DNA from: Eledone cirrhosa
Lineage: Eukaryota
DNA length: 64,000 bases
Assembly: GCA_964016885.1 (NCBI GenBank)
Contig: OZ024744.1
Span: 58,280,001 to 58,344,000, forward strand
Direction of reading: 5' to 3'
Shown: positions 3,278 to 26,489 of the stretch, piece after piece
Position numbering within the stretch: the stretch's first letter is position 1
Layout: each line of letters starts with the position of its first letter
The notes under the pieces: model-generated
Told to the model about the DNA's origin: nothing
The model's input: the letters and a program-made list of their open reading frames with translations, nothing else
Database searches by the model: none
Made by a program: the position numbers and the translations under genes

Positions 3278-4023
3278 TTCATTTTTTTTCTCAGTTGGTT
3301 CAAATTTCCGTCTTCGATAGTCAGTCCGGGTAACGATTTGGATGTATAATAGTATAGATATTTATAGGAAAAAATAAATAAAAAAACATTAATAGATTTT
3401 ATTTAAATTAGGCTGAAAGTTCCACTCAATGGTATCTTGATAGGTATTGAAAGTCAGGTCTGGGCACCCTCATATGCATACGAAGATTGTCAACCCGGGG
3501 AAGAACCGTTGAGACATAATATGATGGCTTCTCTTCAAATTTGGCACAAAAACCAAGGTGAGCCATGAATGCATTGCTTTGATTTTTCCCATAGCCAAAT
3601 TTTTCATTTGTTCTCATTACAATATCTGTCAGGAGAATGATGTCACTTGCCAAATTTAGTCTAATTCTATTTTGTGAACGAGTGGATAAAACATGCATGT
3701 TTCAAATAACTTTAAAAAAAAAAATGGTAAAATCAAATGCATATCTATGCTTTTTGTTTGTGTCAATCTAACATTAAAGTTTCAGGTGGTTAATTCTGGT
3801 GTTCATTATTCCCATGCAAAATTATGCCTGGCTTGATTCAAAATTTGAGAATATCATTTTTTTCAAGGCATTTATGTAATGAGATTTCAGACAAACGTTT
3901 AATGCTTTATTTTAAGCCCTTGCCAAGCCTTCCTCTTTAGTGGATATTAGATTCTTTGTTTCTGAAATTGAAAGCACCATCCTATATACATTTATGACCA
4001 TTGCCTGTTGCACACTTATAATC

Positions 4024-12066: not shown

Positions 12067-13805
12067 CTATAAAACTTGCTGGTTTACTAAATGACAAATA
12101 AAAATGTGTTCATTCATGCTTGAGTAAAACTTTTGACTTGTTTTCATCTTATAAATTTATTCTACTTTTCGGGATTTTTGCTTAGTAAATATTATTCCCT
12201 AATCATATTGTTAAATAGTTTGCGTATACAAAATTGATATACACGAGAGGTCCATAAAGTCCAATTACTCCATATGTGGTAACTCGGATTTATACATGTG
12301 CAATCACTCAAGTATTCATAACCAGGCACATAATACTTTACTGTTGTTTGGGGCAGTGGATTGGCCGAATCTGTTAAAGATCTGCAAAATAGTTTCAATA
12401 TTTAGTTACAGTCCTTTGTTTTGAATTCAAATACAGCTGTTGGCAGCTTTGCCTTTCACCTTTCTCAGATATTTAGGTACCAGTGAATTGAAAATGAAAT
12501 TCGAAATTTACAGCTTTTAACTGGCCTCCTACAATGTTGTATCTCATATTTTATGGGTGTTAATGGAAAATAACATGAAACAAAGCATCTTTCTCAAATC
12601 CAGTACTCAAACCTACAACTTTATGATAGTTTAATACCATAACTACTAGAGGCGATACTCCACTGAGTAATTAAATTTGTCAACCCTGTGGGATATGCTG
12701 TGTCTACATTAGAAATCAACATTAAGAAGACGAGCTATAAACAGTTGTATATGGGTCAATTCACCTATAGCATGAAAGATAGTAAAATGCCAAAATTATA
12801 CATAGAATGTATATTGTGCTGAAAAGTCAATGGAACATCTTCTTTGTATTGCACCTTCATGTGAAATGTCCGTATTTAAGCATACAGCTAAATAAGGCTG
12901 CATATAATTACTTGGCCATCTTCTGAACCACTCACCTAAACACCACCATTTACAAAACTCCCTTTGTAACTAGTTAAATCTGACTACTTTTATTAGTCAT
13001 TTCATAAGTGATTTCTCTATAAACCTGTGCCTAATTTATTGCAAGGTATCCTCTGCTTTCTACTGTGTCGATGTGTGTGTGTTGAAATGTTAGCTCCTTT
13101 GTATTGGTATCATGTAAAGAAATTGACGCAAAGGTTTAATTTTAGACTAGCACTTGTCCTCTCCTCTTTCTCATCAGCTTCAATGTCTTCTGATAACTTA
13201 AACATAATATAATTGTTTCTACGTTAGGCACAAGGCCAGCAATAACCCAGTGCATTACTGGTACTTTTACTTATTGACCCCGTAAATATGTTTTATAAGA
13301 ACCCCAAGTTCTGAAATTGCACATCTTCATTTTGTAAATTCTTTTAGATATATTTTCTACTCATTCAATTTGTTTTTATAAACAATTTGCACCTTAACAC
13401 ATTTGCCATTTACAAGTTGTTTAGAAAAACATTAAATTATTATAAGCAATTTTGTCTATTTAACTCTTATATTTTCACCATTCAATTTTATATTTAATGC
13501 TCGAGAAATGTATGATTTTTTTTTTTTTGATTTTTTTTTATGAAACTTGTAGTTTCATTTTATCTTAATATTCATTTTATATATAATGTTCGAATGATTT
13601 TTGATTTTTCCACTTTTATAAGCCATAAAATTAATGTTGACTCTAACAGTTGTACATTTTTAATAGTAATTTCTTCTGTAGACATTTAAAAATTGTTTGA
13701 AAGATGAATTACAAATGTTATTAGGCTGTATTTAAACCTGTCTTGCAATCAATTTATTAAAATTCTGAACAAAAATTTAAAGGAAATTATTTTTTTTTAT
13801 TACAG

Positions 13806-13946
13806 GGGAAAATGTCCATCTTAAGATATTAGTTCCTAGTGCAGCTGCTGGAGCCATTATTGGTAAAGGTGGAGAGACCATTGCACAAGTGCAGAAAGAT
13901 GCAGGAGCCAGAGTAAAGATGTCGAAAGCTAATGATCATTATCCTG
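13806..13946 (+). CDS. Nova: Nova coding exon, KH1 first half (141 nt, phase 1-1)
   Basis: TTTTTATTACAG|GG GAA AAT GTC CAT CTT AAG ... CAT TAT CCT G|GTAACT; missed by the ORF track. Confidence 0.93.
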
Positions 13947-16900
13947 GTAACTATTTTCTGTTTGTGAAGGACTAACAAATATTTAATATTGGGTTGGGAC
14001 TGTTTATAATTAACATATCAAGGAAGTAGGATAAATAAAGTGATTGTTTTTAATGATTTTGTATTAATGGAGGTGAGAGAATTTTAGATACTTGCATACT
14101 TGTGATAAATTTTCTCTATACTACATAGTTTAACATTTGAGTAATAATGATTTAAATATCATTTGGTGATCTATCAGAATACTGCATGTGAGAAATTGAA
14201 TATGTAGGCTTACATTGTAAATTTTCTGCATGACTATTTTTAGAAAATTTAAATTGAATTTTATTGCTAGTTTAACAATATCTTGTAGCATTTATTTGTA
14301 TTATTTTTTGGTTAGAATAGGGTCGCAGACTTGGCAGTATCAGTGGAGCGTCGGACAACATGCTTTGCGGCATATAGTTACGGCCCTTGTTGTTCTGAGT
14401 TCATATACCACTGAGATTTAGCTTTGCCTTTCATTCTTATGGGGTTGATAAAATAACGTTCCAGTAACTCACTGGGGTTAATTTGACTTTCTCCCTACCC
14501 TTCAAATTTCTGGCCATGTGTCAAAAGTAGAAACAATTATTTATTGATTAGAATTTTTTTTACTTCATTTCTATTGTAAATAAGCATTTTTTTTTCTACT
14601 CTTTAAAAATCATTTTGATATAAAGAATTGGAATATATTGAAGAGGCACCACATTTTGGTCATTTATTTTTATTAGATTAACAGTTTATTGTTTAAAAAA
14701 AATTTCCAGGGACATCCGAACGAGTGTGTCTTATAACTGGTTCAGTTGAAGCTGTTAGAAAAGTCCATACTTTTATTATGGAAAAAATCAGGGAAAAACC
14801 AGAACCTAACCCCAAATTAGATGAAAATAAAAGTACCTATGAACGGCACCGGCAGGTAATAATGTTAATTTTCTTTCAGATTTTACACACACACACATAC
14901 TCACATATATACACACATGCACGCACACATATATATACATGCACACATGTGTGTTTGTGTATATATATGTATAGTTTAGAAATGTATTTAAAGTAAATGA
15001 AATCTATGAAGATTTAACTTTAATTTTTCATACTTATTGTCTACATTCTTTTAATTAATTTGTGTAATTGAGAAAAGATGGGAAGAAGTGCATGAAACTG
15101 AGGAAAATATATTCTTAGTTACCAAAGCATCTTCCTATCCAATTTGATTGTGTCGAATTTTTCGGAATTTTTGATGTATATGAAAGTGGATTAATAATCT
15201 TTTAAAATTATATTTAACTATAGTTTTTGTTCAATATTTGCCTTTCCATTTTGTTAATGTTACTAAATCAGTGGTCAGAATTAGCTCTTCTACCTCCAAT
15301 TCAGGCAGCAAGAGCCCTTTGTTTAAATAGGCTGTCTGATAGGTTGCTATTTCCAAACTATAAAGTTTCTCTTACATCACCTTCTGATCTGCTCACTTTC
15401 CTTACTTTTTGTACATACTGAAATCCCAAAATAGGTTAAAAAGAAATCATTCTTACTTTCAGACAATAGATTTAGCTGCTCCAACCCAATATGACAGGCT
15501 CCAGCCCTCTGATAGTCTAGAACCATTTTTACAGGTCAGAGAGTCCTTTGAACTTTTTGAAACCGCTAAGGTCAAGTTTTGGCCTTTTTATTTACATATG
15601 GCTGGACATTTTGTTTCAGTATTCAAGGAAATTGAAATTGTATTCCAAACCATTTATTGATGGTAATAAATGTTCAAATAAATATATATTTTGATCTAGC
15701 TCTGAATGTATAGGAAGTTCTTGCTAAAGTATGTTTACTGTGGATGAGAACTCATTTTTATATATTTAGAAATGTTAAACATTACTGTATTATATAGTAC
15801 AAAATTCTTAAGGATGACTTTATTTGGAAATTAAGCATGTTATTTAAGTATACTCCTAGTTGGTTTTCACATGATGATGATCAGGTCACTGCTGCCTCCT
15901 CTTTTCAACTGCATTCAGCATGTCTGTTCAAATTAATTTAGCATTTACCTGTTTCATTCCTAAGGCTAAGATAGTTCTGCATTTTATAATAAAATAATTG
16001 TTAACCACATTTGTTTGATTTGGTCTTTGAGTAGAAATGAATTATAGCTAGCTATTATTATTATTATTTTTTTTTTTTTTTTACACCGTTTGAACATCTA
16101 TTAGTCAACTAATAGATATGAAATTGTCTTTTAGTGTGTTATACTAATGAAATATTAATTCAAATCACTCAAAAAACTTTGCTGATTATTAATTTCAACT
16201 ATAAAAAAAAACCTGTGGTTAACTAAATAAAAATAAGAATTTTATTGAAAAAAAAAGTTTCTCTTAAATATTTTAAAATGTAACAGATAATAGATAATTT
16301 TATAACAAGATTAACCATTTAAATTTGGTTTGCTACATATAAAGTCATTCATTTTGATCATAAAATCATAATTATCTAATTTGTAACTGAATCAAAATTA
16401 AAGCTATTTATATATATTTTGTTTTTGCTTGATGATCATGTTCCATATTTTGCTTTAATTTATTAACTGTTGTTTTACCAATGTTTTCAGGTGAAAATCT
16501 TAGTCCCTAATAGTACTGCAGGAATGATAATTGGTAAAGGTGGCATTTATATAAAACAAATTAAGGAGGAAAGTGGAGCGTATGTGCAGATATCTCAAAA
16601 GTCAAAAGAAACTAATTTGCCAGAACGCTGTGTAACAGTTGCAGGTGAGCTATTTTGAGATTAACTGAAAATACAATTGCAACATTGATTGAGCTTTTCC
16701 ATGTGTAATGTTTTTTTGTTTTTTTTTTGTGTGTGCATTATTGTTGTTTGAAACTGAATTTACAGTTAGTAAACAAAGATTCTCTTATACTCTTACTTTT
16801 TGTGCATGCACAATGAAGAATTTTGACGTTTTGAAGATTAAGATCTGTATTTTGTTGTAGCTTTTGACTTTTACATAGTAAAATTGATGTTTCATGTACA

Positions 16901-18598
16901 TGGATGAACTTACAGTAGTGATTGTTCATCTATAAAGTTGGATTTATTTTATTTATTTTTATGAATTGTTGCTCTTATTTTATAACCATAAGCTTATTAG
17001 GGTTGTAATTATTATGCTTTATATTGCAAGTGGTTTTTATATGATTTATCACTAGAATGTGTAAACCATTCTAAATATAGATATAAATATTTAATTAGAA
17101 GTGGATTAGCCACTAGTTTCCAAAAAAATGTTTTCTCTGATTTCAACTCATCAGCAGTATTTGTTATTATAAGATATTCCTTGTATAAGTCTTATCAAAT
17201 CGGTAACTAGTTTTAATGGTTATTTTAGCATTTTAAAAAAACATTTTAATTTGATAGTTTTTCTTTTATAATGTAACTGAAATATTAAGATTCACTATCT
17301 AAATTAAAATATTGTAAATAAAGTAGTATGCAGTTTAATAGTTTTTCTGAGGTCTTAAATTTTATTTAGTCTAAAATGTTTTTTTTCTTTCTTTTTTTTT
17401 TCTTTTTCTTTTTCTTAATATGTGTATTGCAGGTGATGTTGAGTCCAACAGAAGAGCTGTTGACATGATATTACAGAAGATAGTTGAAGATCCTCAAAGT
17501 GGAAGCTGTCCAAATATCAGTTATGCAGATTACACAGGACCAGTGGCCAGTGCTAATCCTACCGGGTCCCCTTTCGCTAACACGGACTATATACAAAACA
17601 GAAGTACAGAGATAGGATTAGCTAATAATAACTTTGGTGCTTTTGGTTTTGGTTTTAATGGAAATGCCTTTGGAAACAATATAGGAGCTAGCATGACGAA
17701 TCTGAACTTGAATGCAGCTTTAAGTGGTGGCACTAGTAATAGCATTAACAGTACGGCTTTGGATAACATAAAAATAACTCTGCGAGGAAACGGATTTTCA
17801 GATCAAGCAACCGAAGAAATAAGTACTGCCATGAACACTTTAGCTAGCTATGGTATATTAGCTAGTATGGGTTTAGGAATGGGCAGTTTGAATAATTTGG
17901 CAAACTTAGGAACTGGAAGCGGTCTAGGAACAGGACTGAATCTTAATTCATCTGGCTTGCAAGGCTCTAGCATGATGTCAAGTAGTACAACTTCAACCAC
18001 AAGTGTGAGCAGCCCTTTCTTTAACACTACAACCAGTACTAACAGTGCTGGTAGCCTTTTTGGTCCAGTTGGCAGTGGGTCATCCGGATTAGGAAGTTCT
18101 GGCTCTACTGGAGCCAACTCTAGTCTTTTCAGTAATTCCTCTCCTAGTATTGGCAACGAAAGATATGGGGGAAGTCCAATGCTTAATGATTCATTTGGCA
18201 ATGCTGCTAATTATCCCAGCAATCCTGGGTTCACTGGAACTCCAAGCATAGCTGGCGACAGGTCTCCTAATGTTAATCAAAATTCTTTTGGCCTCGGAAC
18301 TGGCATCTATTGCCCTGCTGATGACAAATCAGCCCCGGCAACTAAGCATGAGATGGAGGTTCCGGAGACAATTGTTGGAGCTATCCTGGGACCTGGCGGG
18401 AAAGGCATCGTGGAAATACAACAGCTCACGGGCACCAACATTCAGATTTCAAAAAAAGGAGTCTATGTACCTGGTACCCGTAATCGTGTTGTCACCATAA
18501 CTGGTACTCCTAACAACATTTCCAAAGCCCAGATATTTATCCAGCGGCGCCTCCAGCAAGAGGAAATGAAGAGGGCTCGTCAAGCTTCTACCCGTTAG
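13806..18598 (+). CDS. Nova: RNA-binding protein NOVA/Pasilla orthologue (three KH domains), 5'-partial, about 534 aa from four exons
   Basis: Spliced translation gives KH1 [28 protein letters not shown]2 [23 protein letters not shown], the Nova-specific [26 protein letters not shown] motif, linker motif MNTLASYG, and KH3 [34 protein letters not shown]. All introns are GT-AG with consistent phases. Confidence 0.96.
14322..14540 (+). mobile_element. tRNA-derived SINE (family A), intronic
   Basis: TTGGCAGTATC A-box-like head, GAGTTCA B-box-like motif, GCTTTGCCTTTCATTC body, GGCCATGTGTCAAAAGTAGAAACAATTAT tail. Confidence 0.75.
14710..14855 (+). CDS. Nova: Nova coding exon, KH1 second half and linker (146 nt, phase 1-0)
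   Basis: TTTCCAG|GG ACA TCC GAA CGA GTG TGT ... CAC CGG CAG|GTAATA; encodes [28 protein letters not shown]. Confidence 0.93.
16491..16644 (+). CDS. Nova: Nova coding exon, KH2 (154 nt, phase 0-1)
   Basis: TTTTCAG|GTG AAA ATC TTA ... ACA GTT GCA G|GTGAGC. Confidence 0.94.
17433..18598 (+). CDS. Nova: Nova last coding exon: KH2 end, G/S/N-rich linker, KH3, stop
   Basis: Long poly-Y tract then TTGCAG|GT GAT GTT GAG; open frame to TAG at 18596-18598. Confidence 0.93.
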
Positions 18599-24667: not shown

Positions 24668-24712
<45 letters not shown>

Positions 24713-24840
24713 ATATAATATGTATATATATATATGTATATATATATATGTGTATATATATATATATATGTGTGTATATATATATACGTGTATATATATA
24801 TATATGTGTATATATATATATGTGTATATATATATATGTG

Positions 24841-24871
<31 letters not shown>

Positions 24872-24939
24872 GTGTATATATATGTGTATATATATATATA
24901 TATACATACATATATATATATATATACATATATATGTAT

Positions 24940-24970
<31 letters not shown>

Positions 24971-26261
24971 CATATATATGTATATACATACATATATATA
25001 TATATATATACATACATATATATGTATATATATACATATATATGTATATATATATATATATATGTATATACATATATATACACTATGTATGTATATATAT
25101 ATATATAAATAATGTATATATATATATATTATATATATATAAAATGTATATATATAATGTGTATATATGTGTATATATAATGTATGTGTATATATATATA
25201 ATATATGTGTATATATAATATATATGTGTATAGATAATGTATATGTATATATATATATATAATATATATGTGTATATATAATGTATATGTATATATATAA
25301 TGTGTATATATGTATGTATATATATATGTGTGTGTATATATATATGTATACATATACATATATATGTATATGTATACATATATATGTGTATACATACATA
25401 TGTATGTATATATATATATGTGTATAGATATGTATGTATATATATAATATATGTATGTATGTATATATATATAATATATGTATGTATGTATATATATAAT
25501 ATATGTATGTATATATATAATATATGTATGTATATATATATAATATATGTATGTATGTATATATGTATATGTATGTATATAATATATGTGTATGTATGTA
25601 TATATGTATATGTATATATATGTTTGTATGTATATGTATATATATGTTTGTATGTATATATATATATGTATATGTGTGTATATATGTATATGTATGTATA
25701 TGTGTATATGTATGTATATGTGTATATATATGTATATGTATGTATGTATATGTATATATATGTATGTATATATATATATATGTATGTTTGTATGTATATG
25801 TATGTATGTATGTATGTATGTATATATGTATGTATGTTTATATATATATGTTTATATGTATGTATGTGTATATGTATATGTTTATATATGTATGTGTATA
25901 TGTATATGTTTATATATATATGTTTATATATAGATGTGTTTATATATATATGTGTGTATATATATATAGATGTATATATATGTGTGTATATATATATGGA
26001 TGTATATATATAATATGTTTATATGTATGTATATATATATATAATATATATGTTTATATATAATATATATATACATATATATGTGTATGTATATAATATA
26101 TATATATATGTATGTATATATGTGTATGGGTATATATATATGTGTGTGTATATATGTAATATATATATGTGTATATATATATATATATAAATATATATAT
26201 GTATAAATATATATATGTATAAATATATATATGTATAAATATATATATGTATAAATATATG

Positions 26262-26315
<54 letters not shown>

Positions 26316-26333
26316 GTATATATATATAATATG

Positions 26334-26367
<34 letters not shown>

Positions 26368-26439
26368 ATATGTATATATATATAATATGTATATATATAT
26401 AATATGTATATATATATATGTATATATATATAATATGTA

Positions 26440-26489
<50 letters not shown>
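24668..26489. repeat. About 1.8 kb compound (TA)n/(TATG)n/(TACA)n microsatellite tract
   Basis: Directly visible; it generates all the YIYI-type ORFs. Confidence 0.97.

What the first reader, a model, noticed from the sequence alone, without database searches (positions are those of the whole stretch)
15463..15534. Candidate 72-nt cassette exon between KH1 and KH2, same position and length as the autoregulated vertebrate NOVA1 exon 4
Seen: TTCTTACTTTCAG|ACAATAGAT...TTTTTACAG|GTCAGA gives a 72-nt, phase 0-0, stop-free exon ([24 protein letters not shown]) in the phase-0 intron 14856-16490. Established, recalled from memory: vertebrate NOVA1 has a 72-nt, 24-aa autoregulated exon at this junction (TLPSSPTTTKSSPSDPMTTSRANQ). 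Both peptides start with T, contain PT and PSD and end with Q. Inference: a deeply conserved or convergent linker-tuning exon. Similarity is weak and few YCAYs are nearby, so coincidence is possible.
Basis: partly seen in the sequence, partly recalled or inferred. Interest (0 to 1): 0.75.

Follow-up and report, generated by a model that had tools for sequence, protein, structure and literature searches.

The report
Octopus Nova's optional linker exon
The octopus gene for the splicing regulator Nova has a real 72-base exon that is spliced in between its first two RNA-binding domains, at the spot where mouse Nova1 also carries an insert; it likely arose independently of the mammalian exon, and self-regulation by Nova is untested and has little support in the nearby sequence.

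Summary
The exon is real. Contigs of 2 of 3 putative RNA runs join 14855 to 15463, and 3 of 3 join 15534 to 16491 (close relatives, not the window's own species). Nine of ten RefSeq Octopus sinensis isoforms carry the 24 residues; one skips them. Exon and flanks (15345-15680) show 1 listed substitution against a relative's DNA, versus 26 in the 355 nt upstream.

Homology to mammalian NOVA1 exon 4 is unlikely. The host intron is ancestral. Among 213 scored protostome linkers only O. sinensis has the insert, 92 have 1-5-residue extensions there, and an octopus paralog adds 25 unrelated codons. Ciona Nova and mouse Nova2 lack an insert. True vertebrate NOVA1 orthologues and squid were not sampled. 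YCAY motifs near the exon are at chance level.

Verdict: an already annotated cassette exon, most likely a convergent gain at an insertion-tolerant junction, lengthening a flexible linker from 20 to 44 residues. This scan reported the same exon earlier in another genome, with the same reading (e1-8821198).

The parts
15463..15534 (+). 72-nt in-frame cassette exon of octopus Nova, 24 aa in the KH1-KH2 linker
   Evidence: both junctions in contigs; 9 of 10 O. sinensis RefSeq isoforms
14710..14855 (+). Upstream exon: end of KH1 and the short linker, ending ...ERHRQ
   Evidence: loose ends before 15460 in X4 and X14 match its 3' end
16491..16644 (+). Downstream exon: start of KH2 ([10 protein letters not shown]...)
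   Evidence: loose ends behind 15536 in X4, X11, X14 match its 5' end
13806..13946 (+). Exon with the first part of KH1
17433..18598 (+). Last coding exon: end of KH2, long linker, KH3, stop
15345..15680 (+). Highly conserved block: 118 nt of intron, the exon, 146 nt of intron; likely holds splicing control elements
   Evidence: 1 listed substitution against DNA run X22, versus 26 in 14990-15344 and 8 to 14 in 15681-16030; no special fold, z 0.31
15367..15462 (+). CU-rich stretch and short pyrimidine tract before the 3' splice site; 3 scattered YCAYs
   Evidence: regulatory role inferred
15535..15540 (+). 5' splice site GTCAGA, with C at +3 where the neighbouring exons have A or G
   Evidence: use shown
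16315..16369 (+). Cluster of 5 YCAYs about 120-175 nt before the KH2 exon; the only Nova-type cluster in this intron, function untested
   Evidence: one of 8 such clusters in window 1-21500, conservation not examined

Best explanation
This is a real 72-base exon of octopus Nova that is spliced in or left out between KH1 and KH2, and it likely arose within cephalopods, independently of mammalian NOVA1 exon 4, in an ancient intron at a junction that tolerates extra residues. Shown: both inclusion junctions exist in RNA-derived contigs of close relatives; RefSeq holds included and skipped isoforms; the intron position is shared with arthropod-like, worm-like and fish loci; exon and flanks are far more conserved than the rest of the intron. 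Predicted: inclusion lengthens the unstructured KH1-KH2 linker from 20 to 44 residues without touching either fold. Inferred: this loosens the spacing of KH1 and KH2 and so changes which arrangements of YCAY motifs, or which partner proteins, the two domains can engage. Inferred: inclusion is controlled by splicing factors that bind the conserved 336-nt block around a weak 5' splice site; a CU-binding factor is a better guess from the motifs than Nova acting next to the exon.
For: Junctions: X4 and X14 join 14855 to 15463; X4, X11 and X14 join 15534 to 16491; three studies, three organism labels; DNA run X22 spans the stretch unspliced. Isoforms: 9 of 10 O. sinensis RefSeq proteins include, X4 skips. 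Constraint: Poisson P 1e-7 if the 6 unlisted X22 differences lie downstream, 0.009 if all lie in the block; block edges chosen after seeing the data. Independence: insert only in O. sinensis among 213 scored protostome linkers, 57 unscored; no similar exon in 14 complete non-octopus introns and 2 partial ones, and 6 of the 14 are 88 nt or shorter; Ciona Nova and mouse Nova2 have no insert; the best match of the peptide to 231 other linkers is matched or beaten by 65% of shuffles. Tolerant junction: 92 of 213 linkers have 1-5-residue extensions, a paralog adds 25 codons at the 3' splice site, and linkers range from 2 to 131 residues among 84 scored representatives. Linker position and low confidence in the model: residues 91-127 pLDDT under 50. 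Recurrent gain of neural exons in the same coding region is described as common in bilaterians (10.64898/2026.09.05.749416, section 10).
Against: No skip junction was seen directly: the laid stretch did not hold both flanking exons, so skipping rests on gene models (P0002, P0055, P0060). No RNA of the window's own species label was laid. All 223 vertebrate proteins retrieved start KH2 as NOVA2 does, so true NOVA1 orthologues were not tested. The mammalian exon's sequence was not obtained. No squid, cuttlefish or Nautilus orthologue covering the junction was found, so the exon's age is open. Equal length (if the recall is right) is a coincidence that independence must absorb. Absence from protein models is weaker than absence from genomes, and only a few genomic introns were mollusc-like, all partial. 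Low pLDDT is expected anyway because one row of 36 has the insert. Tissue pattern, regulator and effect on RNA binding are untested.
Confidence: 0.78

Rival explanations
1. Deep homology: the exon and mammalian NOVA1 exon 4 descend from one exon in the bilaterian ancestor, kept in cephalopods and NOVA1 and lost elsewhere.
Against: Needs many separate losses: other molluscs, other protostomes, Ciona, NOVA2-type genes and two octopus paralogs lack it. The junction is an ancestral intron, the only place a whole exon can enter this linker.
Confidence: 0.06
2. Convergent autoregulation: the exon arose independently, but octopus Nova also controls it, through the scattered YCAYs before the exon or the cluster at 16315-16369.
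For: A 5-YCAY cluster lies in the downstream intron; distal clusters can act (PMC3737533, section 16); Nova has recruited non-orthologous exons of orthologous genes in mouse and fly (PMC8379844 passages); the flanks are under strong constraint. Compatible with the best explanation.
Against: 5 YCAYs in the block against 6.2 expected; at most 2 in any 45-nt window within 200 nt of the exon, below the 3-in-45 minimum in PMC3737533. Mammalian exon 4 has many YCAYs in the exon and the next intron (PMC5343574 passage). Equal clusters occur 8 times in 21.5 kb.
Confidence: 0.22
3. Splicing noise: a weakly used cryptic exon with no function.
For: Weak 5' splice site; 31% of shuffled introns hold some in-frame candidate; in X11 only a depth-7 contig with the upstream intron retained was laid; O. 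vulgaris and Argonauta models skip it.
Against: Spliced contigs at depth 97 and 231 against 4 and 10 for intronic contigs in the same runs (contig depth is a poor measure of expression); 1 change in 72 nt and near-invariant flanks; GC 0.43 like the coding exons, against 0.25-0.29 for the intron.
Confidence: 0.05
4. The flanks are conserved because they form double-stranded RNA for A-to-I editing, which is common in coleoids (recalled), not for splicing control.
For: Constraint reaches more than 100 nt into the intron on both sides.
Against: The block folds no better than shuffles, z 0.31; none of the 25 longest inverted repeats listed for 13700-16700 (of 39) has an arm longer than 17 nt touching the block; no A>G difference in the exon in any of the three RNA contig sets (contigs drop rare variants).
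Confidence: 0.08

Closest known systems
Mammalian NOVA1 exon 4 (Dredge et al. 2005, not held; seen only through passages of PMC4191425, PMC5343574 and section 16 of PMC3737533)
   Different: No meaningful peptide likeness by eye; not Ser/Thr-rich; no YCAY cluster in or next to the exon; no connecting lineage found; autoregulation is shown in mammals and untested here.
RefSeq Octopus sinensis Nova-1 isoforms X1-X3, X5-X10 (e.g. XP_029648569.1) versus X4 (XP_029648571.1)
   Same: The same exon, 23 of 24 residues identical, already annotated as included or skipped.
   Different: The window has Tyr where O. sinensis and all four laid runs have Phe (A>T at 15491).
Type I convergent alternative exons (10.64898/2026.09.05.749416, section 10 read; ExOrthist PMC8379844, passages)
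   Same: Different exons gained independently in the same coding region of orthologous genes.
   Different: Those sets are defined by tissue-specific inclusion, not measured here; the preprint's main text does not mention Nova.
Short extensions at the same junction in other protostome Nova/Pasilla proteins
   Same: Variable extra residues between linker and KH2, present in some isoforms and absent in others.
   Different: 1-5 residues; in three gastropod-like transcripts the extension begins with the intron's GT, so it is a shifted 5' splice site, not a cassette.

Membership tests
Nova/Pasilla KH protein gene | Three KH domains with closest relatives among Nova/Pasilla proteins | tested here: met
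   best solved match Nova-1 KH1/2 (2ann), E 8e-56
Cassette exon | Both inclusion junctions present in RNA | tested here: met
   upstream junction in 2 of 3, downstream in 3 of 3 putative RNA runs of close relatives
Cassette exon | Skip junction present in RNA | tested here: inconclusive
   Only from gene models (RefSeq X4, O. vulgaris, Argonauta); the laid stretch could not show a skip joint
Regulated alternative exon | Conserved flanking intron sequence | tested here: met
   one DNA run and partial RNA contigs, block edges post hoc
Regulated alternative exon | Tissue- or stage-dependent inclusion | not testable with these tools
   Runs are contigs without tissue labels
Orthologue of mammalian NOVA1 exon 4 | Same intron position and phase | tested here: met
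Orthologue of mammalian NOVA1 exon 4 | Sequence similarity above chance | tested here: inconclusive
Orthologue of mammalian NOVA1 exon 4 | Presence in connecting lineages | tested here: not met
   Absent from other protostome protein models, scanned introns, Ciona and NOVA2-type genes; shark, lamprey, amphioxus and Nautilus not sampled
Nova-regulated exon | At least 3 YCAYs in about 45 nt in or beside the exon | tested here: not met
   at most 2 within 200 nt; criterion from PMC3737533 section 16
Nova-regulated exon | Inclusion responds to Nova level | not testable with these tools
   Needs knockdown, minigene or CLIP

The most novel reading that the evidence does not exclude
Octopuses and mammals, two lineages that built large brains separately, each evolved a 24-residue optional exon at the same spot of their Nova gene, and in both Nova tunes its own KH1-KH2 linker by controlling that exon; in octopus it would act through the distal YCAY cluster before the KH2 exon.
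Probability: 0.2. Interest if true: 0.68.

Novelty: new member of a known kind. Interest (0 to 1): 0.38.

Why it matters
The exon itself is already in RefSeq for O. sinensis, so its existence is not new. The parallel with mammalian NOVA1 exon 4 was not found in print in my searches (subscription papers, bioRxiv supplements and scanned figures were not seen). It gives a clean test case for whether a master neural splicing factor acquires the same kind of isoform switch twice. If Nova controls the exon, it is convergent autoregulation in a cephalopod; if not, it shows that equal position and length can arise from an insertion-tolerant junction, a caution for exon-orthology calls.

Tried and rejected
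No holder listed is on record as RNA; this blank was not used as evidence. A region search with the insert and its flanks (P0126 residues 99-140) found 3 candidates and none at E 10 or below; it sees cluster representatives of 314-1000 aa only and missed even the O. sinensis isoforms, so it is uninformative. The Atlas search gave only generic KH clusters under 0.9. Attempts to obtain true vertebrate NOVA1 failed: a fish query returned 223 NOVA2-type proteins; 9 of 221 scored had 7-35-residue inserts that mostly look like intron sequence and do not resemble the cassette. Dredge 2005, Teplova 2011 and a third PMC id were not held; the mouse Nova1 sequence in a supplement is cut two residues into the insert. 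An 18-nt match between the cassette's acceptor and the intron of the C4 paralog was rejected: 63% of shuffles score as well. Origin by duplication of nearby gene sequence: no match better than 12-14 nt. Repeat origin: one match in G000 (the tool warns that this does not prove rarity). The Tyr/Phe difference is not A-to-I editing: it is A>T and is also in the DNA run. Rows dropped: 57 of 270 proteins unscored; of 22 intron rows, 2 were misplacements and 6 near-duplicates were not scanned; the L051 range began 60 nt inside the exon (true intron 372 nt) but covered the intron. A look-up of earlier findings by sequence returned nothing. No complex prediction was run, as no binding claim is made.

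Full report
Observation. The stretch 15463-15534 is 72 nt, has an AG after a short pyrimidine tract before it and GTCAGA after it, and reads [24 protein letters not shown] without a stop. It sits in a gene whose last exon is 99% identical to Nova of Octopus sinensis and O. bimaculoides. The exons seen are 13806-13946, 14710-14855, the cassette, 16491-16644 and 17433-18598; joined, they give an open reading that differs from O. sinensis isoform X1 at 5 of 558 residues. The cassette is the only in-frame 45-120-nt candidate in its intron under fixed rules; 31% of 300 shuffled introns contain some candidate and 1.3% one of 72 nt. The region has one match in G000.

It is spliced. Four runs were laid on 14990-16040. 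In X4 and X14, contigs match 15460-15536 and continue on the left with the end of exon 14710-14855 and on the right with the start of exon 16491. In X11 one low-depth contig keeps the upstream intron and is joined to 16491. The DNA run X22 spans the stretch unspliced. The three putative RNA runs come from three studies and three organism labels, none the label of the best DNA holders, so the junctions are shown in close relatives. Their RNA status is the tool's guess, but joints across genomic introns point to RNA, and G000 shows no processed copy of this exon. Independently, 9 of 10 RefSeq O. sinensis isoforms carry the insert and isoform X4 lacks it. The O. vulgaris and Argonauta models lack it; the three O. 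bimaculoides models are broken in this region. A skip junction was not seen directly, because the laid stretch did not hold both flanking exons.

It is under constraint. Against X22, 26 substitutions are listed in 14990-15344, one in 15345-15680 (A>T at 15491, Tyr to Phe, shared by all four runs and O. sinensis) and 8 in 15681-16030; six more X22 differences are not listed. If those lie downstream the Poisson P for the block is 1e-7; if all lie inside it, 0.009; the edges were chosen after seeing the data. The tallies by kind for X14 and X4, which together cover the block, are fully accounted for by listed rows, which favours the first case. The block does not fold better than shuffles. Conserved flanks are typical of regulated alternative exons (own knowledge).

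Relation to mammalian NOVA1 exon 4. Nova1 causes exclusion of its own exon 4 (PMC4191425, passages), and exon 4 with its downstream intron holds many YCAYs (PMC5343574, passages). The primary paper was not held. A mouse Nova1 construct in supplement 18 of PMC12445529 continues with other residues after the linker end that aligns with octopus ERHRQ, whereas mouse Nova2 and three Ciona Nova constructs go straight into KH2. The position match is therefore real. By eye that peptide shares 3 of 24 positions with the octopus one and has 12 Ser/Thr against 4. The final Gln follows from the CAG at the end of a phase-0 exon.

Why the position match is weak evidence. The phase-0 intron before KH2 recurs in 20 of 59 metagenome loci that look arthropod-, worm- and fish-like (kinship inferred from sequence), so a new exon in this linker has one place to go. 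None of 14 complete introns and 2 partial ones holds a similar exon; one unrelated 87-nt candidate scored 13 against 123 for self, and 6 introns are too short for a 72-nt exon. Of 213 scored protostome proteins, which include RefSeq isoform sets of abalone, limpet, scallop, clam, oyster, Aplysia, other snails, chiton, spider and locust, 9 have the 24-residue insert (all O. sinensis), 92 have 1-5 extra residues and 112 have none; 57 could not be scored. In G000 an intronless paralog on C1 has the short linker, and a paralog on C4 adds 25 Ser/Thr-rich codons at the 3' splice site of the same intron, with no likeness to the cassette. Lengthening by about two dozen residues has thus happened more than once at this junction. 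Limits: all 223 vertebrate proteins retrieved are NOVA2-type at the KH2 start and do not test NOVA1, and no squid, cuttlefish or Nautilus orthologue covered the junction.

How it likely works. A model of the included isoform places the insert (residues 109-132) in an unstructured linker between intact KH1 and KH2 folds (low confidence there is expected, as 1 of 36 rows has the insert). Inclusion lengthens the linker from 20 to 44 residues. I infer that this loosens the spacing of the two domains and so alters target or partner choice; this is untested. The weak 5' splice site and the conserved block suggest control by splicing factors. Nova itself is not favoured near the exon: 5 YCAYs in the block against 6.2 expected and at most 2 per 45 nt within 200 nt, below the minimum of 3 given in PMC3737533 (section 16). 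A 5-YCAY cluster at 16315-16369 keeps distal autoregulation possible, but 8 such clusters occur in 21.5 kb and its conservation was not examined.

Novelty. The exon is already annotated. Independent gain of exons in the same coding region of orthologous genes is a described and common pattern (10.64898/2026.09.05.749416, section 10; PMC8379844, passages). Searches for a cephalopod Nova exon listed nothing relevant by title and abstract start; supplements of preprints and scanned figures were not seen. Verdict: real cassette exon, likely convergent with NOVA1 exon 4, autoregulation unproven; new member of a known kind; interest 0.38.

Noticed in passing
window 3444-3557 (+): A 114-nt exon upstream of KH1 is present in some O. 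sinensis RefSeq isoforms and absent from others. It is followed by 5 YCAYs in 3563-3646 and a TGCATG near 3694, a better candidate for Nova/Rbfox control of the Nova gene than the linker exon.
   Followed up: partly
window 15620-15662 (+): Inside the conserved block, a possible 43-nt frameshifting exon (ttttgtttcag before, gtaata after) that would act as a poison exon; no junction seen.
   Followed up: no
window 15505 and 15570/15571 (+): An internal in-frame 3' splice site (30-nt short form) and a possible second in-frame 5' splice site 36 nt downstream of the exon; neither seen in contigs.
   Followed up: partly
L063 1129-2796 (G000:C1): Intronless Nova paralog in one 559-codon open frame, likely a retrocopy with the short linker; close relatives exist in O. 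vulgaris, Argonauta and cuttlefish proteins, so it likely predates the octopus-cuttlefish split.
   Followed up: partly
L062 632-1500 (G000:C4): Third Nova paralog: KH1 in one exon, a 794-nt intron, and a 75-nt Ser/Thr-rich 5' extension of the KH2 exon.
   Followed up: partly
(fish proteins): All 223 retrieved vertebrate proteins, including fish proteins named Nova-1, start KH2 like mammalian NOVA2; fish 'nova1' may be a NOVA2-type duplicate. Not tested by tree or synteny.
   Followed up: no
window about 43000-63500: Fragments of LINE-like retroelements (endonuclease, reverse transcriptase and RNase H-like frames, with stops) on both strands, recognised by eye; a 1.8-kb TA array at 24668-26489.
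   Followed up: no
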